Shown: positions 5,658 through 20,140, counted from the first letter of the stretch. The stretch: 20,140 bases of DNA from Nanobdellota archaeon (GCA_034722435.1 JAYENX010000006.1:1-20140); one strand, 5' to 3'. Translations and numbers: made by a program. The notes: a model not told the origin generated them from the sequence alone.

Positions 5658-5679
5658 TTATCTATTTATTCATTTTTCT

Positions 5680-6016: not shown

Positions 6017-6142
6017 GTAGAAAGTCTTTCGTTCAAGGTGGTCGAGTAAAAAATTAAGATGTTGTAACATTGTCATCGACCACTTCCTGTTATATAAATA
6101 ATAGGTAACGCTTTCGCTGGCCAGTTTGGCAAGACTTTCTAT
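6017..6142 (+). ncRNA. Putative structured RNA (multi-stem), family unknown
   Basis: Perfect 11-bp terminal stem (6018-6028 / 6131-6141), a 10-bp stem (6036-6045 / 6076-6085) and an 8-bp hairpin (6086-6093 / 6098-6105). The imperfect pairs inside these stems are G-U on the + strand. Confidence 0.55.
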
Positions 6143-6159
6143 TAAGTTATCATAATCAG

Positions 6160-6173
6160 AACCTTTAAATATT
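6160..6173 (+). promoter_or_regulatory. BRE-TATA promoter of the wHTH / methyltransferase-kinase unit
   Basis: aaccTTTAAATAtt, identical to 5723-5736, followed by an AAGGTG ribosome-binding site before ATG 6220. Confidence 0.55.
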
Positions 6174-6219
6174 TGAATTATCTTAATTCTTTTAATCATT
6201 TATAAAAAAAGGTGTTTGT

Positions 6220-6684
6220 ATGGCTGTGATTTCGAAAGATGTTCCTTTGGTTGAGATTACCCTTAGAAGGTATGAAAAGCCAAGTGTTAATGATAGAGAT
6301 TTAGTTAGGAAACTTTGTCTTAGTACTGGTCTGTTGCAACCGGGAGATTCTAGGGATGTTATTGTCGATGTTCTTTATGTATTATTGAAAGCTTTCAAGG
6401 GAAAGAAAGAGATGAACTCTGAAGAGGTTCGTGATGAAGTCATTCAGTCTCGAAGAGGGTTTAACCTTACTTTAGTAGGTGTTGCTTCTTCTAATATAAG
6501 AAGGCAATTGAAACGGTTAAGGGATATGTATATTGTTGAGAAAAATGTTAATAATTATAGAATTACAGAGTTTGTTTCATTAACAGAAACGTTTGAAGAG
6601 AAAGTTGAACAATTCTTGCTTACGCAAGTTTTGTCAAGGGTTAAAGATTATTATAAAGAAGTTGATGAGAAGTTTTTGAAATAA
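6220..6684 (+). CDS. Winged helix-turn-helix protein, putative DNA-binding regulator
   Basis: Helix-helix (MNSEEVRDEV...ASSNIRRQLKRLRD) followed by a beta-wing (YIVEKNVNNYRI). Preceded by AAGGTG. Confidence 0.7.
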   Translation: MAVISKDVPLVEITLRRYEKPSVNDRDLVRKLCLSTGLLQPGDSRDVIVDVLYVLLKAFKGKKEMNSEEVRDEVIQSRRGFNLTLVGVASSNIRRQLKRLRDMYIVEKNVNNYRITEFVSLTETFEEKVEQFLLTQVLSRVKDYYKEVDEKFLK

Positions 6685-6685
6685 G

Positions 6686-7912: not shown

Positions 7913-8757
7913 CTTTGGTATACGGGTTCAAGTTTTGGTATTTCTGGAACTTTGGAAATTGCATACGCGAGCCAGTTTGCATGAGGCTGTGTTTGGTCTT
8001 CAATTGTAGTGGTTATTTGGTTCTCTGCTAATAATTCTAGTTGTTCTTTAAAGTCTTTAGCAGATTGTACAATAATTGTTTTTCCTGTTAAAAATTTTTT
8101 TTGTGCTGTAATCATGTATGCGCAAGCTTTGTTATAAGCCATAACTAAATGTGGCAGGATTAAGCTGTCGGTAGGAGTTGTTACATCTATAAGCGCATCG
8201 TCTAAAGCTGGTAAGAAAATGTGTGCTTGGTTAGAGTTCCTTCTTAATTGTTCATATGCATAATCTTTTCTTGATTTAAATGAAGCTTTAAGTTCGGGGA
8301 CATTACGCATCGCGTATTGCATGAACTGAAGTTGTCTTATGGTTTGAACACGTCTTTTTTTGCTTTTGGCAGTAGCGTATTTCATGTTTTCTGTTACTGC
8401 TCTTGACATTGATTCAAGGTATTGGTCAAAAGCGTTATGGATATCTCTACCTCTGAACATTTTTCTGTCGAATTCAGTTGAGGATATTGCTGGTTGCAGC
8501 ATTGGAACAAGATTTTCTGGTAGTGAACTACTTGCCGCTTTCATAAGTACAAAGTAATCTGCTAAATGTGTTAGTGCTTTTGCTTCAAGTTGGACTTTGC
8601 CTGGTTCTGTTTCAAGAAAATCTGATACTTCTTCTTTATGTTGTCTAATCATTTCTTGATGTAGAGCACTTTTTCTGCGTAACATTTCAGTTAAAATCTT
8701 TTTTTCGCTTGTAGTAGGTAATCTACCTAAGAATTCTTCTAAATTTAATTCAGCCAT
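7909..8757 (-). CDS. Hypothetical helical protein
   Basis: 282-aa ORF with a GAGGGG ribosome-binding site just upstream and a 4-nt convergent stop overlap with the previous gene. No recognisable motif. Confidence 0.75.
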   Translation of the reverse strand: MAELNLEEFLGRLPTTSEKKILTEMLRRKSALHQEMIRQHKEEVSDFLETEPGKVQLEAKALTHLADYFVLMKAASSSLPENLVPMLQPAISSTEFDRKMFRGRDIHNAFDQYLESMSRAVTENMKYATAKSKKRRVQTIRQLQFMQYAMRNVPELKASFKSRKDYAYEQLRRNSNQAHIFLPALDDALIDVTTPTDSLILPHLVMAYNKACAYMITAQKKFLTGKTIIVQSAKDFKEQLELLAENQITTTIEDQTQPHANWLAYAISKVPEIPKLEPVYQS

Positions 8758-8881: not shown

Positions 8882-10069
8882 TTAGTCAATTAGGTTAGCA
8901 TTAACATTAAATTTTTTTAAACTGAAAAGTATCATGCTACCTATCATGATGGTTGCCGCTGCACCCATTAGAACTGAGTTGATGGAGTATAAATCTATAA
9001 GTTTACCTATGGATACGTATAGGCCTGCACCGATTAAGTTGTAGACTAAACTTTTTACTGATAATACTGTTGCTCTGCTTTGTGATTTAATATGGCTGTT
9101 AAGGTAATCTTCGAACACTATTTCTTGGAATGCGATGACTCCGTAAAATATTGCGAAAGCAATAATTAAAGCTGTAAATCCTGCTACGCTGAATACTATG
9201 TATAGAATAACGTGAGATACGAGGATAAATGTTAAAGATGCTTTTTCTTTAAGTTTATTTTCAATCTTATGTGTGTACCAGGATATTAATGCTCGGACGC
9301 CCATCATTCCTGCGAATAGTATACCAAAGAATTTTACATCAAGACCCGCGGATACGAGAAGAGGTTGTTGCCAAAAATCAAAGAAGAATTCTACGCCTAT
9401 ACTGGATAAAAAGAAAAAACCTATTAGCCACATGATTTGTTTATTTTTTAAAGTGTACTTCAAACCTTTAATTGTTTGGTTCCAATGATTTTTTAGGTTA
9501 AGTTTTTTGTGCCATTTATATGGTTCTACCATTGTAGATACAACTATTGCGGCTGCAATATATACTGCGCCGGTTACTATAAATCCTAGTCTTGGGTTTA
9601 TTGTAAAAAGGTAAGGTCCCAAGAATACTCCTATAATTGATGCTATTGTGTTATACGTATTGATTTTGCCTCTAATCTTTTTGTATTGTTTTCTTTTTCC
9701 TATTCTTTTTATAGAGTCGTAGAGAAGTGCTACGTCTGCACCTGATATGAATGAGAATGCAATTCCCATGATTAATGCAATCATGTAATAGTGCATGGGT
9801 AGGTTCATAAATCCAATCGCTACAAATCCTGTACCGTTGAGAATGCAAGATGTCATGACTGCTTTTTTTCTGCCAATCAAGTCTGCGAGTGCACCTGTTG
9901 GAAGTTCAAGTAAGACTATAACAATGGCGAATATTGTTTCATGAATACCTATGTTTGTAAAATTAAAACCTAGCCATAGGAGGTACAAAGTACTTATCAT
10001 CCATATTAGTCTAATATGGTCTATGGCGGAGTAAATGCCAAATTTCCAGATGTTGTCTCTAACATGCAT
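8882..10069 (-). CDS. MFS transporter
   Basis: About 12 hydrophobic helices in two halves, motif A (LPTGALADLIGRKK), GADVALLYDS, and RATVLS in the second half. Confidence 0.93.
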   Translation of the reverse strand: MHVRDNIWKFGIYSAIDHIRLIWMISTLYLLWLGFNFTNIGIHETIFAIVIVLLELPTGALADLIGRKKAVMTSCILNGTGFVAIGFMNLPMHYYMIALIMGIAFSFISGADVALLYDSIKRIGKRKQYKKIRGKINTYNTIASIIGVFLGPYLFTINPRLGFIVTGAVYIAAAIVVSTMVEPYKWHKKLNLKNHWNQTIKGLKYTLKNKQIMWLIGFFFLSSIGVEFFFDFWQQPLLVSAGLDVKFFGILFAGMMGVRALISWYTHKIENKLKEKASLTFILVSHVILYIVFSVAGFTALIIAFAIFYGVIAFQEIVFEDYLNSHIKSQSRATVLSVKSLVYNLIGAGLYVSIGKLIDLYSINSVLMGAAATIMIGSMILFSLKKFNVNANLID

Positions 10070-10160: not shown

Positions 10161-10766
10161 ATGATTAAAGTAATTTATTTTGATATAGGTGGCGTTATAG
10201 TTACTGACGGTTTTGCTAGGGCGGCTTCTTTATTTTCTAAAGAGTTAAACATTGATGAGGAAAAATTGTTTGATGCTTATATTAAAACAGATGATTGGAA
10301 ATATTCTGCAGGAAAGATTGGGATTGAAAGATGGGATAATTTTTTTAAAGAGTTAAATTTAAAAAATATCGATGTTCAAAAGTTTGTTGATTTATGGCAT
10401 TCCATATTTGTGCCAATAGATGAAACAATTAGTTTAATTCAGAAATTGCACGGAAAATATTTGTTAGGGATTTTAGCAGATCAACCTAAAGATATTTTAC
10501 CTTATTTTGAAAGATATTCATTTTTAGATTTATTTGATTTAAGAGTAATTTCTTGTGAAGTGGGTCATAGTAAGGATGAAGGGAATTTAAATATTTATGA
10601 AATTGCTGTAGATTTAGCAAAAGTAAAATCTGAAGAAATATTATTTATTGATAATAATCAAAAAAATTTAGATAATGCTGCTAAATTAGGTATTAAAACT
10701 TTACTTTATAAGAATAATGAACAACTTAAGAAAGAATTAGTTTCTTTTTCAATAAAACTTAATTGA
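10161..10766 (+). CDS. HAD-superfamily hydrolase, subfamily IA (YihX-like DxGG type)
   Basis: Motif I YFDIGGV, motif II LAD, motif III Lys in HSKDE, motif IV FIDNNQKN, then AAKLGIKT. Confidence 0.92.
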   Translation: MIKVIYFDIGGVIVTDGFARAASLFSKELNIDEEKLFDAYIKTDDWKYSAGKIGIERWDNFFKELNLKNIDVQKFVDLWHSIFVPIDETISLIQKLHGKYLLGILADQPKDILPYFERYSFLDLFDLRVISCEVGHSKDEGNLNIYEIAVDLAKVKSEEILFIDNNQKNLDNAAKLGIKTLLYKNNEQLKKELVSFSIKLN

Positions 10767-10813
10767 GTTTGATTTTTAATTGTAACTATAATTATTAAGA
10801 GTAACATTTTTAA

Positions 10814-11344
10814 ATGCGAACCATTATAATTCTTTATATGAAACTAACAGACGATACTGAAACCTTTGCGATTCCTATGGTCTCTTGCATTATTGAGAGG
10901 GTTAAGAAAGGTGAAACTGAAGTGTTGGTTCAGACTAGGTGGAAGCCTCAGGATGATCCTAAGTATTCAGGATTGTTTGAGTTACCCGGTGGTAAGGTTA
11001 GAAAGTTTGAGAATATTTTCAAGTGTCTCAAACGTGAAGTGTATGAAGAGACGGGTTTGAATGTTGTTAAGGTTACTTCTGAAAAAACTAAAAAGTATTC
11101 TGTTAAGAAAGATGGCGCGTTTGCGTTTAAACCGTTTTGTTGTATTCAGCAGGTTAAAGCTGGAAGGCCTTGGATAGGGTTTGTGTTTGTAGTTGAAGTT
11201 TCTGGTAGGCTTAAAAAGAACGGTGATGATACTAAAGACGTGCATTGGATAAAGAAAAAAGATTTGAAGACAATATTTGATAAAACTCCTAAAGAGATAT
11301 TTACATTGCATTTAGGTGCTTTGGATATGTATTTTAAGAGTTAG
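10814..11344 (+). CDS. Nudix hydrolase
   Basis: Exact Nudix box GKVRKFENIFKCLKREVYEETGL (GX5EX7REUXEEXGU). The start may be ATG 10838. Confidence 0.95.
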   Translation: MRTIIILYMKLTDDTETFAIPMVSCIIERVKKGETEVLVQTRWKPQDDPKYSGLFELPGGKVRKFENIFKCLKREVYEETGLNVVKVTSEKTKKYSVKKDGAFAFKPFCCIQQVKAGRPWIGFVFVVEVSGRLKKNGDDTKDVHWIKKKDLKTIFDKTPKEIFTLHLGALDMYFKS

Positions 11345-11353
11345 ACAATTTAG

Positions 11354-11361
11354 TTTTTTTT
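11354..11361 (+). terminator. T8 tract, probable terminator
   Basis: Eight consecutive T, 9 nt after the Nudix stop. Confidence 0.45.
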
Positions 11362-11403
11362 GATATTTCACTATTGATTTCTATAAAGTATATATCTAAT
11401 AAG

Positions 11404-11418
11404 GATAATGCATATATA
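11404..11418 (+). promoter_or_regulatory. Probable BRE-TATA promoter of the HAD / TPR-kinase operon
   Basis: GATAAT (fits BRE consensus RNWAAW) then gCATATATA, 47 nt before ATG 11451. The same 12-mer is at the same distance before trpS. Confidence 0.45.
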
Positions 11419-11450
11419 ATGTGCTCACTTATATTTAAATGGAGGTTGAT

Positions 11451-12428
11451 ATGAATTTAGAATCTAAATTTAAACATGTAAAGAAGGTTATATTAGATGC
11501 AGGTGGCTGCATTCTTAAGGTTGATAAGATTGAGTATTCTGATGAAGCTGTAATTCAAAATATATCTGCTAAATATATTTCAAGAGATTCTGATATTGAA
11601 CGGTTGGTCAGGGTTCTTTTTAGGGAGGTTAAGAATTTTGCAAATAGGATTCCTGGTGTAACTTATGATAAAATTATTACTTCAATATATGAAGGTGTTA
11701 ATTGGTATTTTTCTAAGACGCATAATGTTGAAAAGATAAAGAAACGTGTAAGGCGTGCGATTTTTCGTAAATCGAAGAGTAGATTACCTGATAAACATAT
11801 TTATATTGCTGAGGCAAAAAAGTTGAAGCATGTATATGAGGGTGATAAAGGTCTTCAGGCTTATGAATTTACAAAACAATTTCTTGAACATCTTAATCGA
11901 AGTTCGTTAGATTATGCAATACTTACGGATGCGCCTCATTCTGCGCAGGATATTAGGCATGCTTTGATGAAGTATGGTGTACCTCCTGAAAGAGTTATAC
12001 CTTCGCAAGAGATTGGAACATTAAAATCTGAGTCTGATCTTCCGTATATAGCTGCAATGTTATTATTGTATAAAGGTTGGGATGCATATCAAAGTTTAAT
12101 ACTTGAACGACTTGATGAAATTCAAGATAGGATAGGTTTACTTCGAGGGATGCGCGATCTTTCAAAAATTGTTAACGTGTTGGGTTTAGATGGGCAGAAG
12201 CTTAAGCAAGACTTTGCAAGTACTGCCGGGTTTTTTGATTCGCCAGAGGAACATTGGAGAGCTTATTCTTTAGGTTTGAGATCTTTTCATGTACAAAGAC
12301 AAGCATACATACATCACGGTTTTTTTACTGTTCCAGATCTTAGCCAGGCAATACCGCGGTTGGGGCAATTAGAGGAACGGCTTGAAAAGAATCCTGAGGC
12401 TAATAATTACGATATTCAAAATGACTAA
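11451..12428 (+). CDS. Divergent HAD-like hydrolase with an insertion
   Basis: ILDAGGC (motif I), ILTD (II), TLKS (III), FFDSPEEH..AYSLGLRSFHV (IV-like). GGAGG at 11441-11445 supports ATG 11451. Confidence 0.7.
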   Translation: MNLESKFKHVKKVILDAGGCILKVDKIEYSDEAVIQNISAKYISRDSDIERLVRVLFREVKNFANRIPGVTYDKIITSIYEGVNWYFSKTHNVEKIKKRVRRAIFRKSKSRLPDKHIYIAEAKKLKHVYEGDKGLQAYEFTKQFLEHLNRSSLDYAILTDAPHSAQDIRHALMKYGVPPERVIPSQEIGTLKSESDLPYIAAMLLLYKGWDAYQSLILERLDEIQDRIGLLRGMRDLSKIVNVLGLDGQKLKQDFASTAGFFDSPEEHWRAYSLGLRSFHVQRQAYIHHGFFTVPDLSQAIPRLGQLEERLEKNPEANNYDIQND

Positions 12429-15400
12429 TTCGAAAACTGGGATAGAGAAAAGAACTTTAGAGAGTTTACTTGATAAAGCTCAGAAGTATATTGAAGATGC
12501 AAAGTTTGCAATTGATGATTTTAATTATTCAAATGCTGTTATTTCGTGTGTTGCTTTGATTCATGTAGTGGGTAATCAGTTAGGTGATGTTCATCCTGAT
12601 GATAATTTAAAAACTAGAGTTAATGAAAGTCTTGACCTGATTAGGATGTCAATGACAGAATTAGGTAAGGCTGAAATTGAAACTTCTGAAAGTTATGACC
12701 AAATTTATCGAATTATGCAATTTCTTGAAAAGCCTGAACTGTTGAAAACTATACAGATGCCTTTGAAAGTGAAATCTTTATTGCACAGAGTCTTAGGCGA
12801 TCTTTGTTTTAAGGAGCATGATTATGAAGCTGCGGAAATAAGTTATAAAGCATCTCTTGCAGTAAAGCCAACTCCTGCTGATATGGTGCGGTTTAAGCAG
12901 AGAGGTCGTATAAAGACGTTTAAGAAAACTGATTTTAATACACGTTATTTACTTGCTACATCTTATCTTGAACATGCGAAATTTTTAATGGGTGATTTGG
13001 ATGTGCAAATTGAGGTTCGGGATACATCGTTTATGCAGGAAACTGTAAAACAGATTAAACAAAAGTTATCTCTTGCAGCATCAACGTTTAAAAGTGTAAT
13101 ATTTAAAGATAGGCGTCGAACGGTAAAACGTAATGCTCGAATTAATCTTGGTCATGTTTATCTTAAACAGTTAGAGCTTTATTCGAATTATCCTCGATTT
13201 TTGCATGGTACTAATCTGGAAAGGGATGCGAGAAGGTCTGCAGAACGTGCAAAGGCTGTTTTTGAAGAGGAGCTCGCAGAGGATAGTATAAAACAAGTGC
13301 ATCGGTCTAAAGCTTTTAAGCATAGGGGTTCTGAGAAAGATTTTGATAGTTTAATCTTTAATGATCCAATGAGTGATGATCTTCAATATTTTATGGGTTT
13401 ACTTTACATGTCAAAGTTTGTTGGTGCTGATAAGGGGGCTTGCGAATTTTTGAAAGCTGTTTCTTCAGATTCTGAGCATTATTCTGAAGCTAGATTAAAA
13501 CTTGCTATTGCGTTAAGTAATATTGGTGCACGTAATAAACAACCTTCTGAAGAAGCAATAAATATTCTTGAGAATCTTGTTAAATCTGAATCTAATTTGG
13601 ATGCGATGGTTCAGGCAGGAAGGCTTTATAGTGATTACGGAAATTATAATAAAGCTCTTAAACATTATGGTAAGGCTTATGCTTTAGCTCATAAATCAGG
13701 TGATAATCAGAAGCTTCTTCTTCAGGCGCTTGTTGGTCTTTGGACTTGTCATAGGAGGCAGTCGAATGTTGAAGATATTTATTTAAAAAATAAACATAGA
13801 AAAGCAGCTTCTAGGATTATGGGGAAAATAGTTGAGGTCCATGAACGAGTTGGAGATCTTGATGCAGTAATTAAACAATATAGTGAAATAATTAGTGCAG
13901 GTAGTAAACAAGAAGGGATTGATGTAATGGAGACTCTTGAATTGTGTTATCTTCGTAAAGGGTATTTGGAAGAAATCCTTAGACCTATCAACGATTCAAT
14001 TTCGGCTGATCCTGATAATTCTAGTAATTTTTTTGAGAGAGGATTGGTGCTTTATACTTTAGGTAATTATACTAAGGCTGCTGTTGATTTTAATCGTGCA
14101 TTGAATATTAAATTTCTTAGAGGTGGTTCGCTTGACGAGGTTGCTAGTTTATGTATGTTAGGTTGTTCTTATATGAATTCAGGTAGGAGGGCTTATGGAC
14201 ATAAAATGCTTAAGCGTGCGCTTGTAAAAACGTATAAACTTTCTGATATTGATTCCAGGTTTCAACAAGATCTTGATCCTGTGAGGCAGGTTTTTACGCT
14301 TCCTATTGAAGAGGTTTTAAGTTTTAAGATTAAGAGAGGATTGAATGTGGCTGAGGAATTCTCTAAATCTTATTACATGCATCAAAAACTTGAAAAGAAA
14401 AGTTTGATATCTGAACCTGTTGCTTTGATAAGGCATAAAGGTGAGCCACATTTTGTTACGCTTATACTTCATGGTGAGTCTTATGTTTCTTCTTTGAAAG
14501 ATGGTACCCTTGATAAAATTAAAAGATACGCTGTTAAAGCAATTGCTATGATGGCGAGATTGCATCATGAAGTTAATCTTGGAAAGAATAAAACTGGTAA
14601 TGTTTTTAAAAAAACCAAATCAGTTTCTCAAACTTGGACAACAGCTTTATTTGATTCTAAGAGGTATTTGTCTTTGTCCGAGTTTACTGGAATTAAGAGG
14701 GTGCATGATGCGTGGCGAGGTATTGATAGGTGTGCGAAATCTCTTGACGAACTTTTATATGGGGATAAGATAAAAGATCCTCTTCTTTATGGTGTTGTAC
14801 AGGGGGATTGTCATTGTGGTAACATAATCGATGTGAGCAGGCTTGATTATGATCCTTGTTTGAATCCAAGACACAGACCGTACGTGAGTTTTATTGATAA
14901 TGATCAGGCTCATTATGACCTTTTCTTTTCAGATCTTTATGATTTTCTTGAAGATATACGTAATCAGATACATACTACTAGTTTGAACAAAAACGATTTT
15001 GTGAGGCTTTATTTTTTGTTTAGAAAATCTTTGAATGATTCTAAGGGCGATTTTAAGAATTTGTTAACCGCTGCAATGAATTCTGATAGAAAAGAGTTTA
15101 TGCCTTATGTGGCTAGTTATGGTGATACGGACGAATATGTTGACATGTATGGACTTTATTGTCATGTGAGAGATCCAAAAACATTTGGGATGTTTAGGGC
15201 TTATGAAGCTTCACAAATAAAATCTCCTGATCAAGAGACTGCTGCGTTATATAATCGAAAAAGTAGTCAGATGTTGCACAATCTTGTAAATAATGCTGCA
15301 AGGATTTCAAATACGTACCCTGAGTTAAAATCTTTGAAAAATGTATGGTTACATTATATTAATAAGGGTGGTCTTGGAAATTATTTGAAATGTAATGAAT

Positions 15401-15468
15401 TGCCTGTTAGGAGTTCGAGGGTTAGAAAAGCTTATAGTTCTTTAATGCGTTTTTCTAGAGCTGCATAG
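12421..15468 (+). CDS. Large TPR-repeat protein with a C-terminal aminoglycoside-phosphotransferase/choline-kinase-like domain
   Basis: At least five clear TPR-like units (e.g. LGDLCFKEHDYEAAEISYKASLAVKP; AGRLYSDYGNYNKALKHYGKAY; RGLVLYTLGNYTKAAVDFNRAL). Kinase motifs MARLH, QGDCHCGN (14800-14823) and FIDND (14890-14904). ATG 12421 overlaps the upstream stop (ATGACTAA). Confidence 0.8.
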   Translation: MTNSKTGIEKRTLESLLDKAQKYIEDAKFAIDDFNYSNAVISCVALIHVVGNQLGDVHPDDNLKTRVNESLDLIRMSMTELGKAEIETSESYDQIYRIMQFLEKPELLKTIQMPLKVKSLLHRVLGDLCFKEHDYEAAEISYKASLAVKPTPADMVRFKQRGRIKTFKKTDFNTRYLLATSYLEHAKFLMGDLDVQIEVRDTSFMQETVKQIKQKLSLAASTFKSVIFKDRRRTVKRNARINLGHVYLKQLELYSNYPRFLHGTNLERDARRSAERAKAVFEEELAEDSIKQVHRSKAFKHRGSEKDFDSLIFNDPMSDDLQYFMGLLYMSKFVGADKGACEFLKAVSSDSEHYSEARLKLAIALSNIGARNKQPSEEAINILENLVKSESNLDAMVQAGRLYSDYGNYNKALKHYGKAYALAHKSGDNQKLLLQALVGLWTCHRRQSNVEDIYLKNKHRKAASRIMGKIVEVHERVGDLDAVIKQYSEIISAGSKQEGIDVMETLELCYLRKGYLEEILRPINDSISADPDNSSNFFERGLVLYTLGNYTKAAVDFNRALNIKFLRGGSLDEVASLCMLGCSYMNSGRRAYGHKMLKRALVKTYKLSDIDSRFQQDLDPVRQVFTLPIEEVLSFKIKRGLNVAEEFSKSYYMHQKLEKKSLISEPVALIRHKGEPHFVTLILHGESYVSSLKDGTLDKIKRYAVKAIAMMARLHHEVNLGKNKTGNVFKKTKSVSQTWTTALFDSKRYLSLSEFTGIKRVHDAWRGIDRCAKSLDELLYGDKIKDPLLYGVVQGDCHCGNIIDVSRLDYDPCLNPRHRPYVSFIDNDQAHYDLFFSDLYDFLEDIRNQIHTTSLNKNDFVRLYFLFRKSLNDSKGDFKNLLTAAMNSDRKEFMPYVASYGDTDEYVDMYGLYCHVRDPKTFGMFRAYEASQIKSPDQETAALYNRKSSQMLHNLVNNAARISNTYPELKSLKNVWLHYINKGGLGNYLKCNELPVRSSRVRKAYSSLMRFSRAA

Positions 15469-16396
15469 AAGCTTGTGTCTCTGCGGAGTGCATTATAGTG
15501 ACGACTATTAATGAGAGTCTGTTGAAGACAATAATATTTTCTGTTTTAAGCTTTTTAGATTGTGTGTTAATGTTATCAAAAATTTTTCTTCTTAGTTTAA
15601 GAATTTCAATTACTTTTTTATTGTCGAATTTGAACACTAATTCGTATAACAAATGAAGTGACTTGTTTACATCTTCTAATACCAATATGGCTTTTGGGTC
15701 AAGAATCCATTGTTCGCGAGCAATTTCGAGTGAAATATACTCGTATACTTCCGCAATTAGATCTAGTTCAGAAATTAGGTGATAACTTAAAGAGGTTTTT
15801 TTATAATTGCGATGTCCTCTTTTATTAAGGAGTCTGAGGCAGAAATTAACGAATTTGTTTATAGTTTTATATTTTACTTCTACATTGGATAGACCTTCGT
15901 AATTTTTCTTTTTTATATTTTGTAAGGTTTCCTTTGAGAGATCGGTTAGTAAAAGAAATATCCTTCTTAATACATTGTTGAATTCGTTTTCGGATATTTC
16001 TGATAATTGTTTTATGAGACAACTTTGGTCAGTGTGTCTAATTATTTCTACACCTATGAGTTCGTTAACTTTTTTTTGAATTGTGCTTAGAATTTTGACA
16101 TTCTTTTTCTTTTTTAAATCTCTGGTTAGAGGTTTATTAAAGTGTAGTTCGATTTCGTCAACTCCATTTCTGTAAATGGCTAAGAGGTAATGTTCAATTA
16201 AGAATTTTGGGAGATCTGTGATGTTAACTTTGGCGCATGACGAGGCGTAGTCTTTATCAGAACTTATAATTAAGTTTCTACCTTGTTCAAGCATTTCAAT
16301 TTCGTCACCTGCATTGAAATTATATTTTTTAATCCATTTAGCGGGTAAGGTGATTGTATGCGTTGAATGGCCTTGCTTAATTATCCTCCTTTTCAT
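15455..16396 (-). CDS. phoU: Archaeal phosphate-uptake regulator, AbrB/SpoVT N-terminal domain + PhoU-like domain
   Basis: MKRRIIKQG.STHTITLPAKWIKKY....GDEI (AbrB) followed by YRNGVDEI, GVEII and PhoU-like helical repeats. GGGGGTG immediately upstream supports ATG 16396. Confidence 0.85.
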   Translation of the reverse strand: MKRRIIKQGHSTHTITLPAKWIKKYNFNAGDEIEMLEQGRNLIISSDKDYASSCAKVNITDLPKFLIEHYLLAIYRNGVDEIELHFNKPLTRDLKKKKNVKILSTIQKKVNELIGVEIIRHTDQSCLIKQLSEISENEFNNVLRRIFLLLTDLSKETLQNIKKKNYEGLSNVEVKYKTINKFVNFCLRLLNKRGHRNYKKTSLSYHLISELDLIAEVYEYISLEIAREQWILDPKAILVLEDVNKSLHLLYELVFKFDNKKVIEILKLRRKIFDNINTQSKKLKTENIIVFNRLSLIVVTIMHSAETQASMQL

Positions 16397-16431
16397 ATAG
16401 CACCCCCTTACTATATATGTGGTGATTAAAC

Positions 16432-16447
16432 TATATAAATATTTCTG
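16432..16447 (-). promoter_or_regulatory. BRE-TATA promoter of phoU
   Basis: The minus strand reads CAGAAAta-TTTATATA, 36-43 nt upstream of the start. Confidence 0.55.
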
Positions 16448-16543
16448 TTTCAATAGTGAAAGTTAAATTAGTATATTTTTCTTTGGTATTGGAATATTTT
16501 CTGTTTTTATAAAATTTATTGAAATTGTTTCGACTTTGTACGG

Positions 16544-16558
16544 ATTATCGTCGATAAT
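16544..16558. promoter_or_regulatory. Perfect 7-1-7 palindrome, candidate operator
   Basis: ATTATCG-T-CGATAAT, 5 nt upstream of the trpS promoter candidate. Confidence 0.4.
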
Positions 16559-16563
16559 GGTTT

Positions 16564-16578
16564 GATAATGCATATTAA
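16564..16578 (+). promoter_or_regulatory. Probable BRE-TATA promoter of the trpS operon
   Basis: GATAATgCATATTAA, 47 nt before ATG 16611; matches the element at 11404. Confidence 0.45.
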
Positions 16579-16610
16579 AAAAAATCTCTTTTTAATTATT
16601 GGTGATGTTA

Positions 16611-17654
16611 ATGACTGATAAACAGACTGATAAACAGGTCGTATTAAGTGGGATGAGACCTACTGGAAAGCTACATGTTGGACATCTCGAAGGGGTGTTG
16701 AGAGAATGGGTTGATTTACAGAAAGAGCATGACTGTAATTTTTTTGTGGCTGATTATCATGCTATTACTACAAACACAAATACTAAAGATTTGAAACAGG
16801 ATACTTTTGATATGGTGAAAGATTGGATTGCTTTTGGAGTGGATCCTGAGAAAGCTAAAATATTTATTCAATCTATGGTGCCTGAACATACTGATTTGCA
16901 TACTATTTTTTCTATGCTTGTGAATCTTGGTAGACTAGAACGATTGCCTACTTTTAATGATTATATGCGAGAAATTATTAAGGTAGATGATAAAGATGTT
17001 AAACAGTTTAATGAGGCTAAACGAGCTAAAGTTAATTATGGTTTTCTGGGTTATCCCGTATTGCAAACTGCTGATATTTTGATTTATAAAACTAATATTG
17101 TTCCCATTGGCGAGGATCAGTTGCCGCATCTTGAACTTACGCGCGAGTTGGCGAAGAGGTTTAATCATCTTTATGGTGAAACTTTTCCTGTGCCAGAAGC
17201 TAAGTTGGGACATAAACCGCGAATTCTTGGAACTGATGGGAGAAAAATGTCGAAGAGTTACAATAATGTAATTTCGCCAATGGATGATCTTGATACTTTG
17301 TTTGCAAAAGTGCGCAGTATGGTGACAGATACTCAAAGAGGTTCTTTGAAAAATCCTGGGAATCCTTACAATTGTAGTGTGTTTGATTTACATGAAGTTT
17401 ATGATAAAGTTGGAAGTGAGAATATTTCTTCAAAATGTCGATCTGCCAATTTAGGTTGTGGTGATTGTAAAAAGATGTTGCCTGAGAAAATTTTTGAAGC
17501 TTATAAAACCTTTCGAGAGAAAAGAGTAGATATAACTGATAGTTATGTGGCAGAGGTTTTAAAGTCGGGATGTGAGAGGGCAAGAGTTATTGCTTCGGCC
17601 ACTATGAAGTTAGTGAAGCATCAAATGTTGATGGATTATCTGGGTGGTAAATGA
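16611..17654 (+). CDS. trpS: Tryptophan--tRNA ligase, bacterial type, with a putative [4Fe-4S] motif
   Basis: SGMRPTGKLHVGH (HIGH), ADYHA, YPVLQTADIL, VPIGEDQLPH, KMSKS, and C-x20-C-x6-C-x2-C (17373-17468). GGTGA at 16601-16605 supports ATG 16611. Confidence 0.95.
   Translation: MTDKQTDKQVVLSGMRPTGKLHVGHLEGVLREWVDLQKEHDCNFFVADYHAITTNTNTKDLKQDTFDMVKDWIAFGVDPEKAKIFIQSMVPEHTDLHTIFSMLVNLGRLERLPTFNDYMREIIKVDDKDVKQFNEAKRAKVNYGFLGYPVLQTADILIYKTNIVPIGEDQLPHLELTRELAKRFNHLYGETFPVPEAKLGHKPRILGTDGRKMSKSYNNVISPMDDLDTLFAKVRSMVTDTQRGSLKNPGNPYNCSVFDLHEVYDKVGSENISSKCRSANLGCGDCKKMLPEKIFEAYKTFREKRVDITDSYVAEVLKSGCERARVIASATMKLVKHQMLMDYLGGK
16614..16637 (+). repeat. Perfect 12-bp tandem duplication at the trpS 5' end
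   Basis: actgataaacag x2, encoding TDKQTDKQ. Confidence 0.9.
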
Positions 17655-19303
17655 TGGCTCAGATGAATGAAAGGAATAGTCAGTTTAAATTTCCTGAAAC
17701 TACAGATGGAATTCCTGAAGAAGGCATATCAGAAGAGAAAGTTTTGGAAGGGATAGATTTAGGGGGTCAGGATTGTTTGGCAAGATATGATAAGATCCTG
17801 ACAATGGCGAAGCCGGGAACTTCAGTTGATAAAATTTGTATAGCAGCAGAAAAAATTATGCAAGAGAAGTATAATACTAATGCGATAGATGGGGAGATGT
17901 TTAGAGGAACAAGAATTAAAGAACTTGAGGTTATTGCTATGACTGCTCAATTATTTGGTAAAGGCGGTAATAATCTTAAACAGTTAGGTTCGGGATTTCT
18001 TCTTAGTGGCGGGACAGAATCAATTAATCAAGCGCTTTGGATGTATAGGAATAAATTTTTTCATCATTATGGTCAAAATGGGGAGAATGATGTTCGAAAG
18101 ATTGGTGTTGGTAAGGCTTTACAAAATATGGCGCTTGCACGATTTGCTCAGACTCAAAAACTTGATGATATGCTTAAGTTACATAATCCTCGGATTTTAG
18201 TTCCTGTGAATATACATTTTAGTGAGAAGAAAGCTGCTGATTTGATGGGTTTAGGTGTAGATTCAATTGTTTATTATGATTTAGATAATAATTTTGATGC
18301 AGATCTTAGATCTGTTGAACGAGTTGTACAATCTGTTTATAATGCGGGTGATGATATTATAATGCATTATGCATGTGGTGGAGATGTTAATAGGGGTAAA
18401 GTGCATGATATAAGAAAAATTAATCAAGTTATAAGATCTTGTGCTGTTGAGCGTAATAATGAAATGAGGTTTTCTGAAAATCAGTTATGGGTTCCTCCTA
18501 CTGTTGTTGATTCTGCAGGTGCGTATATGTTTATAGGTCTTATGAAAGATTCTGAACAGTATAATGGTGGAATGCCTGAAGTATCTTTTAACATACCAGA
18601 TGTAGAAGCAATAATTGGTGATCCGCATAAACAACCAATGCCTTATAGTTGTGGTATGCTAATGTTAAAAACTTGGAAAGATGTAGTACATTCTGATTTG
18701 AGGGCGATTTGTAATACTAATTATTTGGATATGACTGATGCAAAAGTCCAAGATTCGTCTTCGATATTTGCAACTATACCTACTTCTAGAAGCGGTTCGA
18801 ATCCTATGGCGATTTGGGCATATTATATGTATTATGGATTGAAGGGTATGAGAGCTAAGAAAGAGAAAATTTGGAGTTTGGTTCAGGATTTTAAAGAATA
18901 TATTAATGATTCTAAGTATTATGAACTTGTGTGTGAACCCGAAACTCAGGTTGTTGGTTTTTATTTCAAAGGGCCTGGATTGAATGAACGGGTTCCAAAG
19001 GGGGTAAGTACGGGTAGAAATGGGCAGAATAATGTTAACATATATAGAGACATAAAACATTCGAGTGAACATTTTCATCATATTTCTCAGGATGAGAGTA
19101 TGCTAATTCGAACTTTGGAACAGCAGAATGAAGTAGATTCCTCTAATAATGGTGACAAGCTTAAGTACGCTGGTCTTTTTGTGACGGTGATGGAGCATAA
19201 TACTAAAGAAGGTGTTGATGATCTTAAAAAAGTGCTTGAGCAAGAGGGTAAGAAACATTATGAGATTGCAAAACGGGAGATTCCTAATCTTGTAAAATGG
19301 TAA
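17651..19303 (+). CDS. Group II PLP-dependent amino-acid decarboxylase (MfnA/S1P-lyase-like), divergent
   Basis: N-terminus FPE..G..EE.VL and F.GT...E.EVI.M, SGGTESI, HFS, VDSA, the PLP lysine motif GDPHK (18617-18631), TNYL and TSRSG. ATGA overlap with the trpS stop. Confidence 0.88.
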   Translation: MMAQMNERNSQFKFPETTDGIPEEGISEEKVLEGIDLGGQDCLARYDKILTMAKPGTSVDKICIAAEKIMQEKYNTNAIDGEMFRGTRIKELEVIAMTAQLFGKGGNNLKQLGSGFLLSGGTESINQALWMYRNKFFHHYGQNGENDVRKIGVGKALQNMALARFAQTQKLDDMLKLHNPRILVPVNIHFSEKKAADLMGLGVDSIVYYDLDNNFDADLRSVERVVQSVYNAGDDIIMHYACGGDVNRGKVHDIRKINQVIRSCAVERNNEMRFSENQLWVPPTVVDSAGAYMFIGLMKDSEQYNGGMPEVSFNIPDVEAIIGDPHKQPMPYSCGMLMLKTWKDVVHSDLRAICNTNYLDMTDAKVQDSSSIFATIPTSRSGSNPMAIWAYYMYYGLKGMRAKKEKIWSLVQDFKEYINDSKYYELVCEPETQVVGFYFKGPGLNERVPKGVSTGRNGQNNVNIYRDIKHSSEHFHHISQDESMLIRTLEQQNEVDSSNNGDKLKYAGLFVTVMEHNTKEGVDDLKKVLEQEGKKHYEIAKREIPNLVKW

Positions 19304-19875
19304 GGGCGAAAGCTTTTTTTGAAAAGTTTTTTCCTTTTCTTTCTTCTTTACCTTCTTTATCCGGGTTTACACTTTATGATTGTTGTTCTGGAGATGGTAA
19401 AGTTGGGGCGGAGTTTGACTCGCTTGGCCTTGAAAGAATAGTTTTTGTAGATGTTCATGAGGTGGGAAAATTTAAGACTATAACTTCTTCAATTCAAACA
19501 CCTTATGATCTAAATTGTAATGGTATTGAAAATCTTTCAATTAAGAAGCCTTCAATTCTTGTTGCAGTACATGCTTGTGGAAATTTAACTGATCTTATTA
19601 TTGAGGCCGCAGTTTCTTCAAAAAGTTATTTGGCAGTTATTCCTTGTTGTTATAATTCTAGAATGAAAAATTATACTTTGGGTGAACCGCCAGATAATCG
19701 TAAACTTTTATACGATTCTGAGAAAGATTATTATGATGCGTTTAGAGTGCAATTTTTGCGTGAACAAGGGTATTCGGTATTTTTGGAGAGAATTGATTCT
19801 AAGATAACGCCGATGAATAATGTGATTATAGGAATTCCTGGAAATTTTACGGGAAGTTCGAAGAAAGTTATATAA
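19297..19875 (+). CDS. SAM-dependent methyltransferase (Methyltransf_32-like; HACG/PCC motifs)
   Basis: LYDCCSGDG (motif I), FVD, VAVHACGNLTD and VIPCCY. ATGGTAA overlap with the decarboxylase stop. Confidence 0.85.
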   Translation: MVRAKAFFEKFFPFLSSLPSLSGFTLYDCCSGDGKVGAEFDSLGLERIVFVDVHEVGKFKTITSSIQTPYDLNCNGIENLSIKKPSILVAVHACGNLTDLIIEAAVSSKSYLAVIPCCYNSRMKNYTLGEPPDNRKLLYDSEKDYYDAFRVQFLREQGYSVFLERIDSKITPMNNVIIGIPGNFTGSSKKVI

Positions 19876-20048
19876 ATTGTCAACTTATTATATTTATCAT
19901 GAAAAAAATAATTAAGGGTGGTTGCCCCTGGCTGTTGTAAGTTTTCTTTTCTAATTAATTGTATTTGTGGATTTTGGTGGCGATTGTAATTTTCATTGAC
20001 TTAGTTTAGTTTCTATTTTCAAATCAATTTAGATGGAGGTAATAAAAA

Positions 20049-20140
20049 ATGGATAAATACGAGATAAAACATTATTTAAAAACTGAAGAAGGGATACAGG
20101 TTCCTGGTGATACTCTTGATCAAATAGTTGAGATGACTAT
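20049..20140 (+). CDS. 3'-truncated hypothetical protein
   Basis: GGAGGT at 20035-20040, then ATG 20049; the frame (MDKYEIKHYLKTEEGIQVPGDTLDQIVEMT...) is open to the window end. Confidence 0.6.
   Translation, partial: MDKYEIKHYLKTEEGIQVPGDTLDQIVEMT

What the first reader, a model, noticed from the sequence alone, without database searches (positions are those of the whole stretch)
16611..19875. Coupled operon: TrpRS + PLP decarboxylase + methyltransferase, a candidate new tryptophan- or tRNA-linked pathway
Seen: three genes joined by overlapping stop/start codons (ATGA at 17651-17654; ATGGTAA at 19297-19303) behind one promoter/operator. The TrpRS is bacterial-type in an archaeal context. 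Established: extra TrpRS genes occur in Trp-analogue biosynthetic clusters (indolmycin, chuangxinmycin) as resistance genes; Deinococcus TrpRS II partners NO synthase in Trp modification; PLP enzymes act on aminoacyl-tRNA (SepCysS, SepSecS); and a decarboxylated amino acid (agmatine) modifies archaeal tRNA. Three testable models (inference): (1) Trp to tryptamine to methyl-tryptamine, with TrpRS giving resistance or channelling; (2) tRNA- or adenylate-dependent Trp chemistry; (3) an RNA-modification system using an amine plus methylation. A secondary-metabolism-like operon would be unexpected in a reduced DPANN genome.
Basis: partly seen in the sequence, partly recalled or inferred. Interest (0 to 1): 0.88.

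Follow-up and report, generated by a model that had tools for sequence, protein, structure and literature searches.

The report
Extra TrpRS coupled to rare decarboxylase
A tiny symbiotic-type archaeon carries a second, bacterial-type tryptophan-charging enzyme fused into one operon with a rare vitamin-B6 decarboxylase and a small methyltransferase, and this trio recurs in related archaea next to other tryptophan-linked genes, pointing to an undescribed tryptophan-centred pathway whose closest known analogue is the tyrosine/histidine "synthetase + decarboxylase" loci of lactic acid bacteria.

Summary
Three + strand genes overlap by ATGA (17651-17654) and ATGGTAA (19297-19303): a bacterial-type TrpRS with a 4-Cys motif, a divergent group-II PLP decarboxylase, and a Methyltransf_32 methyltransferase.

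The finding passes both of its own refutation tests.
- The genome also has a canonical archaeal TrpRS (contig C16) and a TyrRS, so this TrpRS is an extra copy.
- A TrpRS-like gene sits directly beside the decarboxylase homologue in 8 of 10 independent contexts examined, in both gene orders.
- The partner is either a bacterial-type or a divergent archaeal-type TrpRS.

Both the decarboxylase and the methyltransferase families are rare: about 20 hits each among 5.8 billion proteins. Relatives add tRNA-Trp genes, a TrpD-like phosphoribosyltransferase, BtpA, M20/AstE deacylases and chorismate-mutase-like genes. Two distant variants also carry an EF-1alpha paralogue.

None of the three genomes checked has TrpB or anthranilate synthase.

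Best reading (about 0.4): tryptophan is decarboxylated to tryptamine, the amine is methylated, and a dedicated TrpRS protects or monitors Trp-tRNA charging. Substrate and product are untested.

The scan's earlier notes cover only this same stretch, not other DNA.

The parts
15455..16453 (-). Divergently transcribed 332-aa protein with an N-terminal AbrB/MazE DNA-binding domain and a PhoU-like body. It is a possible regulator and a frequent neighbour of the cluster.
   Evidence: PF04014 at 31.1 bits. The Atlas neighbours are MazE+PhoU archaeal clusters of 52-462 members. A homologous 310-325-aa gene sits in the same divergent position in the P0002 contig, L006/L007 and the P0034 contig. The family is widespread, so specificity for this cluster is not shown.
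16454..16610 (+). Intergenic promoter/leader region of the operon.
   Evidence: AT-rich, with a GATAATG direct repeat (16553-16559, 16564-16570) and an ATTATCG/CGATAAT palindrome (16544-16558). A GGTGAT ribosome-binding-like site lies at 16601-16606. It is not conserved in relatives, and the operator function is inferred only.
16611..17654 (+). TrpRS2: an auxiliary bacterial-type tryptophanyl-tRNA synthetase with a 4-Cys ([4Fe-4S]-type) motif.
   Evidence: TIGR00233 at 290 bits, above the 176.75 cut-off. The best solved relative is 2g36 at 297 bits, with the four Cys aligned. HxGH, GEDQ, KMSKS and C255/C276/C283/C286 are invariant in 28 orthologues. The genome also has a canonical archaeal TrpRS and a TyrRS.
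17651..19303 (+). Divergent group-II PLP-dependent amino-acid decarboxylase (550 aa). The proposed substrate is tryptophan or a close aromatic analogue.
   Evidence: PF00282 at 52.4 bits. MfnA TIGR03812 scores only 86 bits against a 299 cut-off. The AF2 model has pLDDT 81 and pTM 0.86. The top Foldseek hits are Tyr decarboxylases, CSAD, MfnA, DfoJ, S1P lyase and R. gnavus Trp decarboxylase, at about 15% identity. Invariant residues are GGTES, NxH189FS, D287AA, DPHK327, Y358 and TSR380. The family is rare: about 20 clusters among 5.8 billion proteins, and 39 representatives at E<1e-30.
19297..19875 (+). Small class-I SAM methyltransferase (Methyltransf_32 family, 192 aa).
   Evidence: PF13679 at 33.4 bits (cut-off 27); TRM13 is below its cut-off. 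There are 19 homologues among 5.8 billion proteins. The model has pLDDT 90.7 and its PDB neighbours are generic class-I methyltransferases. It is found in the same clusters in L006, L010, L022, L023 and G133.
19899..19940 (+). Conserved micro-ORF MKKIIKGGCPWLL carrying a single Trp codon. It is a candidate Trp-sensing leader peptide for the downstream gene(s).
   Evidence: The 16-nt core GGTGGTTGCCCNTGGC is unique in the 1.3-Mb genome. It recurs as a GGCPW micro-ORF in L006 (9382-9450, overlapping the TrpD-like start codon) and in L010 (8300-8371). No stable RNA fold is predicted. The function is inferred.
20049..20140 (+). Start of the next ORF (MDKYEIKHYL...), cut off by the end of the contig.
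   Evidence: Seen. It has no recognisable relative, so the cluster may continue beyond the assembly.

Best explanation
This is a tryptophan-dedicated module of three co-translated enzymes.

(1) TrpRS2 is a complete, catalytically competent bacterial-type TrpRS. It was acquired once by this archaeal group and is kept in addition to the housekeeping archaeal TrpRS. Shown: extra copy, intact motifs, own clade.

(2) The PLP enzyme is a true alpha-decarboxylase of the group-II fold. Shown: fold and the full catalytic residue set. Its substrate is most likely L-tryptophan, giving tryptamine. This is inferred from its obligate pairing with TrpRS genes and from the precedent in lactic acid bacteria.

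(3) The methyltransferase modifies the amine product or a later intermediate. This is inferred from methyltransferases of at least two different families recurring next to the decarboxylase.

TrpRS2 is co-expressed so that Trp-tRNA charging is maintained, or the Trp pool is sensed, while free Trp is drained and tryptamine accumulates. Tryptamine is a competitive TrpRS inhibitor (established biochemistry, from my own knowledge). The tyrS and hisS copies in tyramine and histamine clusters are proposed to act in the same way.

In relatives the module is embedded in a larger Trp-centred cluster. It holds tRNA-Trp, a TrpD-like PRPP transferase, BtpA, M20/AstE deacylases and a chorismate-mutase-like protein, and its chemistry is unknown.

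Confidence differs by layer. That the three genes form a conserved, Trp-linked functional unit with an auxiliary TrpRS: about 0.85. That the chemistry is Trp to tryptamine to a methylated amine: about 0.4.
For: Operon structure.

Extra copy. G000 has a canonical archaeal TrpRS (NF008927, 538 bits against a 478 cut-off) plus a TyrRS. G041, G042 and G071 likewise have three class-Ic synthetases each.

Synteny of a TrpRS-like gene directly beside the decarboxylase:
- P0002 contig
- L006/L007, with the order reversed
- L008/L009
- L010
- L011/L012, with a 606-aa archaeal-type TrpRS
- L024
- L025, with two TrpRS-like genes
- G071

Methyltransferases:
- MT32 sits in the same clusters.
- Unrelated methyltransferases follow or flank the decarboxylase in G071, L011 and L025.

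Phyletic pattern in 401 high-quality genomes of the phylum:
- decarboxylase in 3
- TrpRS2 in 6
- MT32 in 14
- all 3 decarboxylase genomes have both of the others

Catalytic residues and fold. The position of MfnA R371 is hydrophobic (F/L) in this family, which argues weakly against an acidic substrate.

Trp link: tRNA-Trp genes lie inside the clusters, and TrpD-like and chorismate-mutase-like genes are present. A single-Trp-codon micro-ORF is also conserved.

Precedent: an aaRS gene inside tyramine and histamine clusters is described as 'a general feature', and those aaRS copies form their own clades (PMC3315439). The TrpRS2 clade is likewise separate from bacterial sequences (99% SH-aLRT).
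Against: - No substrate assay exists, and at about 15% identity to any characterised decarboxylase the specificity cannot be read from sequence.
- No precursor/product antiporter is in the operon. The nearest transporter, an MFS gene at 8882-10069 on the - strand, is 6.5 kb away and is not conserved in relatives. The energy-yielding logic of the lactic-acid-bacterial loci is therefore not reproduced.
- These genomes appear to be Trp auxotrophs: no TrpB and no anthranilate synthase were found in G000, G041 or G042. Destroying scarce Trp needs a rationale.
- TrpRS2 and MT32 also occur together without the decarboxylase (L022, G133). The decarboxylase occurs without an adjacent TrpRS in two contexts.
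- The roles of the TrpD-like, BtpA and M20 genes are not explained by a simple tryptamine pathway.
- The decarboxylase is not depleted in Trp residues, which fits neither reading decisively.
Confidence: 0.4

Rival explanations
1. Trp-economy regulon. The genes are co-regulated by Trp availability but do not form one chemical pathway. TrpRS2, often with a tRNA-Trp gene, is a back-up or high-affinity synthetase for Trp scarcity. M20/AstE deacylases free Trp from N-acyl-Trp or peptides. The PLP enzyme, the methyltransferase, TrpD-like and BtpA handle other aromatic compounds, for example salvage of an aromatic amine with PRPP.
For: - The genomes lack TrpB and anthranilate synthase.
- tRNA-Trp genes lie inside the clusters.
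- M20/AstE deacylases recur.
- AsnC/Lrp-type amino-acid regulators are adjacent in L006, L010 and the P0009, P0011 and P0034 contexts.
- A conserved single-Trp-codon micro-ORF precedes the TrpD-like gene.
- Mukai et al. 2017 reached a similar view for other extra TrpRS clusters (PMC5370408).
Against: The tight start/stop overlap of TrpRS2 with the decarboxylase, and the adjacency preserved in both orders and with two TrpRS lineages, suggest more than shared regulation. TrpRS2 and the decarboxylase are not Trp-depleted, as starvation proteins often are. A decarboxylase is an odd member of a Trp-saving regulon.
Confidence: 0.22
2. Translation-linked or tRNA-dependent chemistry. TrpRS2 charges a dedicated tRNA-Trp, or makes Trp-AMP. 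The PLP enzyme and/or the methyltransferase then act on the aminoacyl-tRNA, the adenylate or the tRNA itself. This would resemble SepSecS/SepCysS, GluQRS or D. radiodurans TrpRS II with NO synthase. In some lineages delivery would be by a dedicated EF-1alpha paralogue.
For: - tRNA-Trp genes are embedded in the clusters.
- A second, divergent EF-1alpha lies right after the TrpRS-like/decarboxylase-like pair in G042 and L025, while G042 keeps a canonical EF-1alpha elsewhere.
- TrpRS2 keeps its whole tRNA-charging apparatus.
- The MT32 family is distantly related to Trm13-type methyltransferases.
- Multiple TrpRS paralogues sit in arrays in G289, G351 and L025.
Against: - An esterified carboxyl cannot be decarboxylated, yet the enzyme keeps the full decarboxylase residue set, including the loop Tyr and the TSR Arg.
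- It has no similarity to SepSecS or SepCysS.
- The window's genome and G041 have only one EF-1alpha.
- All cluster tRNAs read the normal Trp codon (anticodon CCA), so no recoding signal is seen.
Confidence: 0.12
3. Resistance-type TrpRS. TrpRS2 protects against a TrpRS inhibitor, as auxiliary TrpRS genes do in indolmycin and chuangxinmycin producers. The inhibitor would be made either by neighbours in the community or by the cluster itself as a Trp-analogue natural product.
For: TrpRS2 is a second, horizontally acquired TrpRS of a different lineage from the housekeeping enzyme. It is co-located with tailoring-type enzymes: a PLP enzyme, a methyltransferase, and a PRPP transferase in relatives.
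Against: No core natural-product machinery is present in any of the loci examined. The His at the position where an indolmycin-resistance substitution is described (my recollection, not checked here) is invariant (H50). The clusters carry tRNA-Trp and regulators typical of primary amino-acid metabolism.
Confidence: 0.1
4. Ordinary housekeeping decarboxylase. This would be an MfnA/PanP-like Asp or Tyr decarboxylase supplying beta-alanine for CoA, lying next to trpS by chance.
For: The best curated family hit is MfnA (TIGR03812, 86 bits), and MfnA supplies beta-alanine in many archaea (established knowledge).
Against: - The score is far below the MfnA cut-off of 299.
- The family was found in only 3 of 401 genomes of the phylum, so it cannot be a housekeeping function.
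- Adjacency to TrpRS is conserved across 27-71% identity.
- The MfnA R371 position is hydrophobic in this family.
Confidence: 0.04

Closest known systems
Tyramine and histamine clusters of lactic acid bacteria (tyrS-tdcA-tyrP-nhaC; hisS next to hdcA/hdcP)
   Same: A second copy of the cognate aminoacyl-tRNA synthetase sits directly beside a PLP (or pyruvoyl) amino-acid decarboxylase. The cluster-linked synthetases form their own clade, apart from the housekeeping copy (PMC3315439). The top structural matches of the window's decarboxylase are exactly these enterococcal and lactobacillal Tyr decarboxylases.
   Different: The amino acid is Trp rather than Tyr or His, and the host is an archaeon. 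No antiporter and no T-box leader are present. A methyltransferase is added, and in relatives also TrpD-like, BtpA, deacylases and tRNA-Trp. The decarboxylase is only about 15% identical.
Extra TrpRS-A / TrpRS-A-like + ORF1 + tRNA-Trp(A73) clusters of DPANN archaea and CPR bacteria (Mukai et al. 2017, PMC5370408)
   Same: Additional TrpRS genes coexist with the canonical one in DPANN. They are clustered with tRNA-Trp and with partner ORFs of unknown function, and were interpreted as 'tryptophan metabolism and encoding'. Locus L024 carries both a tRNA-Trp/390-aa ORF/TrpRS arrangement of that kind and a TrpRS-like/decarboxylase pair.
   Different: The window's TrpRS is bacterial-type with a 4-Cys motif, not archaeal-type TrpRS-A. 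The passages of that paper I read or searched do not mention a decarboxylase or methyltransferase partner; 'decarboxylase' occurs 0 times.
Thermotoga maritima-type TrpRS with a [4Fe-4S] cluster (PDB 2g36)
   Same: It is the best solved relative (297 bits), and all four cluster Cys align and are invariant in the clade.
   Different: That enzyme is the sole housekeeping TrpRS of a bacterium. Here it is an auxiliary copy in an archaeon. Cluster binding was not tested.
MfnA (archaeal Tyr/Asp decarboxylase) and other group-II decarboxylases
   Same: The fold and the PLP-binding and catalytic residues are shared.
   Different: The score is below the equivalog cut-off (86 against 299 bits). This protein is about 150 aa longer, with insertions. 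The R371-equivalent is hydrophobic. The distribution is sporadic and the genomic context differs.
Auxiliary TrpRS in antibiotic producers and D. radiodurans TrpRS II with NO synthase
   Same: A second TrpRS is functionally tied to Trp-modifying chemistry.
   Different: No NOS and no indolmycin- or chuangxinmycin-type genes are present. No interaction with the partner enzyme could be shown.

Membership tests
Tryptophan--tRNA ligase, bacterial type (TIGR00233 / PF00579) | Whole-protein score above the curated cut-off | tested here: met
   290.2 bits against a 176.75 cut-off; PF00579 at 207.5 bits
Tryptophan--tRNA ligase, bacterial type (TIGR00233 / PF00579) | Class-I signature motifs (HxGH, KMSKS) and the Trp-recognising GEDQ Asp | tested here: met
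   L21-H22-x-G24-H25, G167-E-D169-Q170 and K212-M-S-K-S216 are invariant or nearly so in 28 orthologues
Tryptophan--tRNA ligase, bacterial type (TIGR00233 / PF00579) | Aminoacylation of tRNA-Trp | not testable with these tools
   Needs an enzyme assay. Cluster-encoded tRNA-Trp genes in relatives have the archaeal A73, which bacterial TrpRS usually disfavours (from my own knowledge).
[4Fe-4S]-containing TrpRS subgroup (2g36-like) | Four-Cys motif in the anticodon-binding region | tested here: met
   C255, C276, C283 and C286 are invariant and align with the Cys of 2g36. Metal binding was not tested.
Group-II PLP-dependent decarboxylase (PF00282) | Family score above the gathering threshold, and the fold | tested here: met
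   52.4 bits against 27. Foldseek probability is 1.0 to Tyr decarboxylases, CSAD and MfnA, with TM 0.55-0.77.
Group-II PLP-dependent decarboxylase (PF00282) | Schiff-base Lys, pyridine-N Asp, ring-stacking His, and the catalytic-loop Tyr | tested here: met
   DPHK327, D287AA, NxH189FS and Y358 are invariant and align with the MfnA motifs
MfnA (TIGR03812 equivalog) | Score above the equivalog cut-off | tested here: not met
   86.4 bits against 299.4, so this is not MfnA
aaRS-linked biogenic-amine locus (lactic-acid-bacterial type) | Cognate aaRS gene adjacent to the decarboxylase and additional to a housekeeping copy | tested here: met
aaRS-linked biogenic-amine locus (lactic-acid-bacterial type) | Precursor/product antiporter in the cluster | tested here: not met
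   No transporter is in the operon or in any related locus
aaRS-linked biogenic-amine locus (lactic-acid-bacterial type) | The decarboxylase uses the amino acid of the neighbouring aaRS | not testable with these tools
   Needs an enzyme assay
Methyltransf_32 (PF13679) | Family score above the cut-off, and the class-I SAM fold | tested here: met
   33.4 bits against 27. The model has pLDDT 90.7 and a Rossmann methyltransferase fold. Atlas neighbours are all PF13679.
Trm13 tRNA 2'-O-methyltransferase (PF05206) | Family score above the cut-off | tested here: not met
   18.4 bits against 26
tRNA-dependent PLP enzymes (SepSecS / SepCysS) | Sequence-family membership | tested here: not met
   Only decarboxylase families are hit in NCBIfam and in the PDB
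TrpRS-A / ORF1 system (Mukai 2017) | Archaeal/eukaryal-type TrpRS-A with an adjacent ORF1 | tested here: not met
   The window's TrpRS is bacterial-type, and no ORF1-like gene is in the window
Resistance-type auxiliary TrpRS | Altered inhibitor-binding residues, or a natural-product gene cluster around it | tested here: inconclusive
   No core biosynthetic genes are present. H50 is invariant. Inhibitor sensitivity cannot be tested here.

The most novel reading that the evidence does not exclude
The TrpRS paralogue, the PLP enzyme and the methyltransferase are the core of an undescribed tRNA-Trp-linked system in DPANN archaea. Cluster-encoded tRNA-Trp would also belong to it, as would a dedicated EF-1alpha paralogue in some lineages. 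The system would make or deliver a modified tryptophan, or modify tRNA-Trp, that is, a new translation-associated pathway. Alternatively, together with the TrpD-like PRPP transferase and BtpA, the core builds a new Trp-derived ribosylated metabolite.
Probability: 0.13. Interest if true: 0.92.

Novelty: new variant of a known kind. Interest (0 to 1): 0.66.

Why it matters
If the reading holds, this would be the first 'aaRS + cognate decarboxylase' locus for tryptophan, and the first in archaea. It would place tryptamine-type amine production in genome-reduced, probably host-dependent DPANN cells, with possible roles in host interaction or signalling.

It also gives a concrete partner and testable chemistry to the puzzling surplus of TrpRS paralogues in DPANN and CPR organisms (PMC5370408).

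The decarboxylase and methyltransferase are uncharacterised, very rare families. The wider cluster offers several cheap in-vitro tests that could reveal new Trp biochemistry or a new regulatory device in archaea. Its components include:
- a TrpD-like PRPP transferase and BtpA
- M20/AstE deacylases
- tRNA-Trp genes
- an EF-1alpha paralogue
- a conserved single-Trp-codon micro-ORF

Tried and rejected
- Co-folding of TrpRS2 (alignment A3) with the decarboxylase (A2) gave no verdict (score 0.00). It is not evidence either way.
- tRNA analysis of the window's genome was uninformative. Only about 10-13 tRNA genes are assembled and none is tRNA-Trp.
- An Rfam scan of 16300-20140 found nothing above noise, so there is no T-box or other known leader.
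- RNA folding of 19876-20060 gave z = +1.86, so no stable structure is predicted.
- A genome-contig scan for the 16-nt micro-ORF core returned only chance matches in GC-rich bacteria. The pattern was too short for 596 Gb.
- Trp content of the cluster proteins shows no consistent depletion.
- No upstream promoter or operator motif is shared with relatives.
- No overlap links the end of contig C6 to another contig. The 30-aa ORF fragment at the contig end has no relatives.
- The PDB neighbours of the methyltransferase model are generic and do not separate small-molecule from RNA substrates.
- Canonical Trp synthesis by the cluster was rejected: TrpB and anthranilate synthase were found in none of the three genomes.
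- The EF-1alpha in L011 is not the housekeeping copy, because G042 has a better-scoring one elsewhere.

Full report
**1. Observation**

The window is contig C6 (20,140 bp) of a 1.30-Mb, 60-contig archaeal genome that is 94.5% complete. ORF listing and direct reading confirm three + strand genes:
- 16611-17654, with an alternative TTG start at 16599
- 17651-19303
- 19297-19875

The overlaps are ATGA at 17651-17654 and ATGGTAA at 19297-19303. The ATG at 16611 is preceded by GGTGAT (16601-16606).

Upstream lies a 145-bp AT-rich intergenic region with small repeats. Beyond it is a divergent gene (15455-16453, - strand) for an AbrB/MazE-PhoU-like protein. The 'operator' is plausible but unverified, because nothing upstream is conserved in relatives.

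**2. The three proteins**

*Gene 1* is a bona fide bacterial-type TrpRS.
- TIGR00233 scores 290 bits against a 176.75 cut-off.
- The best solved relative is 2g36 at 297 bits, with all four Cys of its C-x(n)-C-x6-C-x2-C motif aligned.
- In an alignment of 28 orthologues, the HxGH, GEDQ and KMSKS motifs and the four Cys are invariant or nearly so.
- The protein is therefore under selection as a complete synthetase.

*Gene 2* is a very divergent group-II PLP decarboxylase.
- PF00282 scores 52 bits. MfnA TIGR03812 scores 86 bits, far below its 299 cut-off.
- An AlphaFold model built from 19 homologues (pLDDT 81, pTM 0.86) matches Tyr decarboxylases, CSAD, MfnA, DfoJ, S1P lyase and R. gnavus Trp decarboxylase. 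Identity is about 15%.
- The profile alignment to MfnA maps GGTES, the ring-stacking His (NxHFS) and the DAA Asp onto invariant residues. The Schiff-base Lys (DPHK), a loop Tyr and a TSR Arg map likewise.
- The position of MfnA R371 is hydrophobic here.

*Gene 3* is a 192-aa Methyltransf_32 protein.
- PF13679 scores 33 bits against a cut-off of 27. Trm13 is below its cut-off.
- Its model (pLDDT 90.7) has only generic class-I methyltransferase neighbours.

**3.

(a) Is this the only trpS? No.
- The genome has three class-Ic synthetase genes. Contig C16 encodes a canonical archaeal TrpRS (NF008927, 538 bits against 478) and C58 an archaeal TyrRS.
- Other cluster-bearing genomes, G041, G042 and G071, also have three PF00579 genes each.
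- For G041 and G042, tblastn shows these are the cluster copy plus a canonical TrpRS and a TyrRS. The two extra G071 genes were not classified.

(b) Is the neighbourhood syntenic elsewhere? Yes, strikingly.
- The decarboxylase family has only about 20 clusters among 5.8 billion proteins. It has 39 representatives at E<1e-30 among 1.84 billion, before a drop to generic decarboxylases.
- In 8 of the 10 contexts examined, a TrpRS-like gene lies directly beside it.

| Locus | Arrangement |
|---|---|
| P0002 contig | TrpRS-decarboxylase |
| L006/L007 | decarboxylase-TrpRS-MT32 |
| L008/L009 | TrpRS-decarboxylase-tRNA-Trp |
| L010 | TrpRS-decarboxylase-CM-like-tRNA-Trp-TrpD-like-BtpA-MT32 |
| L011/L012 | 606-aa archaeal-type TrpRS-decarboxylase |
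| L024 | 389-aa TrpRS-like-decarboxylase |
| L025 | two TrpRS-like genes-decarboxylase |
| G071 | TrpRS-decarboxylase-methyltransferase-like-M28/M20 |

- Two contexts have the decarboxylase without an adjacent TrpRS.
- The partner can be either a bacterial-type or a divergent archaeal-type TrpRS, and the gene order can flip. Both argue for functional coupling rather than inherited adjacency.
- The MT32 family is equally rare, with 19 hits, and sits in the same clusters.
- Distant variants carry other methyltransferase families instead.
- The decarboxylase was found in 3 of 401 high-quality genomes of the phylum, bacterial-type TrpRS2 in 6 and MT32 in 14. All three decarboxylase genomes have the other two.
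- It was not found in 40 relatives of the same order. Related genomes are not independent, so these counts are descriptive only.
- On a tree, the archaeal TrpRS2 sequences (about 30) are separated from the bacterial sample by a 99% SH-aLRT branch. This fits one acquisition.

**4. The wider cluster**

Recurrent neighbours are:
- tRNA-Trp(CCA) genes in L008, L010, L023 and L024. The L008 copy has the archaeal A73.
- A TrpD-like PRPP transferase with GMGGD, KHGS and GMDE in place of GTGGD, KHGN and GxDE (TIGR01245, 153 bits against 199).
- BtpA/SgcQ.
- M20 and AstE/AspA-type deacylases.
- A chorismate-mutase-like protein.
- HAD and low-molecular-weight phosphatases.
- A nucleoside hydrolase.
- AsnC/Lrp regulators.

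G000, G041 and G042 gave no match for TrpB or anthranilate synthase. The cluster is therefore not canonical Trp synthesis, and these organisms are probably Trp auxotrophs.

The window's genome gave no match for BtpA or the TrpD-like gene. However, the contig ends 265 bp after the methyltransferase. Contig C10 begins with an M20-M24(-) arrangement like the one downstream in L008. The assembled operon may therefore be incomplete.

**5. Extra features**

*Micro-ORF.* Immediately after the methyltransferase lies a 13-codon ORF (19899-19940, MKKIIKGGCPWLL).
- Its 16-nt core, GGTGGTTGCCCNTGGC, is unique in the genome.
- The core recurs as a GGCPW micro-ORF in L006, where it overlaps the TrpD-like start codon, and in L010.
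- The nucleotide conservation exceeds that of the flanking genes.
- No RNA structure is predicted.
- A single-Trp-codon leader peptide sensing Trp or charged tRNA-Trp is the obvious hypothesis. It is only a hypothesis.

*EF-1alpha paralogue.* In the distant variants L011 (G042) and L025, an EF-1alpha paralogue lies beside or near the TrpRS-like/decarboxylase pair.
- In L011 it directly follows the pair. In L025 a 438-aa ORF of unknown family lies between.
- G042 has a better-scoring canonical EF-1alpha elsewhere (665 against 483 bits).
- The two paralogues are 54% identical to each other and 43-51% identical to canonical copies.

**6. Interpretation**

The closest known system is the biogenic-amine locus of lactic acid bacteria. 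There, a second tyrS (or hisS) sits beside the Tyr (or His) decarboxylase. Such aaRS copies form their own clades and are proposed to sense or safeguard the amino-acid pool. That arrangement is called 'a general feature' of tyramine and histamine clusters (PMC3315439).

By analogy, the decarboxylase substrate should be Trp, giving tryptamine. Tryptamine is a classical competitive inhibitor of TrpRS (my own knowledge). That gives a direct reason to co-express a distinct TrpRS. The recurrent methyltransferase would then methylate the amine.

I put about 0.85 on 'conserved Trp-linked functional unit with an auxiliary TrpRS' and about 0.4 on the specific tryptamine chemistry.

Weaknesses of the tryptamine reading:
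- There is no antiporter.
- The hosts are Trp auxotrophs.
- The TrpD-like, BtpA and deacylase genes remain unexplained.
- TrpRS2 and MT32 also occur without the decarboxylase.

Rivals and their weights:
- Trp-economy regulon: 0.22
- tRNA- or translation-linked chemistry: 0.12
- Resistance-type TrpRS: 0.10
- Chance adjacency of a housekeeping decarboxylase: 0.04

**7. Prior knowledge and novelty**

Mukai et al. [quoted passage not shown] These sit with tRNA-Trp(A73) and an unknown 'ORF1', and their function is unknown. L024 shows that such an arrangement can sit on the same contig as a TrpRS-like/decarboxylase pair.

The passages of that paper I read or searched do not mention a decarboxylase partner, and the word 'decarboxylase' does not occur in it. 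Full-text searches found no paper in the top-ranked results linking DPANN or Woesearchaeota to Trp decarboxylation or tryptamine, and none on a BtpA/phosphoribosyltransferase link in archaea.

I class the finding as a new variant of a known kind: an aaRS-linked decarboxylase locus, and an auxiliary TrpRS cluster. Its enzyme families are uncharacterised, and there is a modest chance (about 0.13) of something categorically new.

**8. What did not work**

The co-fold gave no verdict. The genome's tRNA set is too incomplete to analyse. The collection scan for the 16-mer was uninformative.

Noticed in passing
window 19899-19940; L006 9382-9450; L010 8300-8371: A conserved micro-ORF ends in ...GGCPW(x2-11). 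Its 16-nt core GGTGGTTGCCCNTGGC is almost identical at the nucleotide level and unique in the 1.3-Mb genome. In L006 it overlaps the start codon of the TrpD-like gene. It is a candidate single-Trp-codon leader peptide, which would be unusual for archaea.
   Followed up: partly
L011 7823-9142 (= G042:C10:70020-71303, L029); L025 6407-7696: A divergent EF-1alpha paralogue lies just downstream of the TrpRS-like/decarboxylase-like pair. In L025 a 438-aa ORF of unknown family lies between. G042 also has a canonical EF-1alpha (L027, 665 against 483 bits). The two paralogues are 54% identical to each other and 43-51% identical to canonical copies.
   Followed up: partly
L008 7954-8027; L010 8497-8572; L023 5406-5476; L024 8651-8725: tRNA-Trp(CCA) genes are embedded in the clusters. 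The L008 copy has G1-C72 and A73. The L010 copy has a poorly paired acceptor stem.
   Followed up: partly
L163 (G289:C1) 2430-3530, 3520-4569, 6357-7337; L162 (G351:C18) 5053-6078, 6080-7123: Arrays of two or three TrpRS-like genes, of archaeal and bacterial type, lie side by side in other genomes of the phylum. The G289 bacterial-type copy has an internal TAA.
   Followed up: no
G000:C10:1-4300 (L038): The start of this contig carries a 398-aa protein with no family, then M20 (1612-2685), M24 (-) and a 195-aa gene (-). This resembles the M20...M24(-) segment downstream of the cluster in L008, so it may be the continuation of contig C6. No sequence overlap was found.
   Followed up: partly
L161 (G133:C5) 4136-7952: A TrpRS2-MT32-233-aa-AstE operon lies with a convergent chorismate-mutase-like gene and no decarboxylase. 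This shows that the TrpRS2/methyltransferase pair can exist without the PLP enzyme.
   Followed up: partly
whole genome G000: Only about 10-13 tRNA genes are detectable in the assembly, many with long predicted introns, and no tRNA-Trp. Seven contigs contain runs of N.
   Followed up: no
window 10161-15468 and relatives (P0002 contig, P0034 contig, L006, L008): HAD phosphatase, TPR/kinase-like and Ser/Thr kinase genes recur upstream of the AbrB-PhoU gene in several related loci. The conserved neighbourhood is therefore larger than the operon.
   Followed up: no
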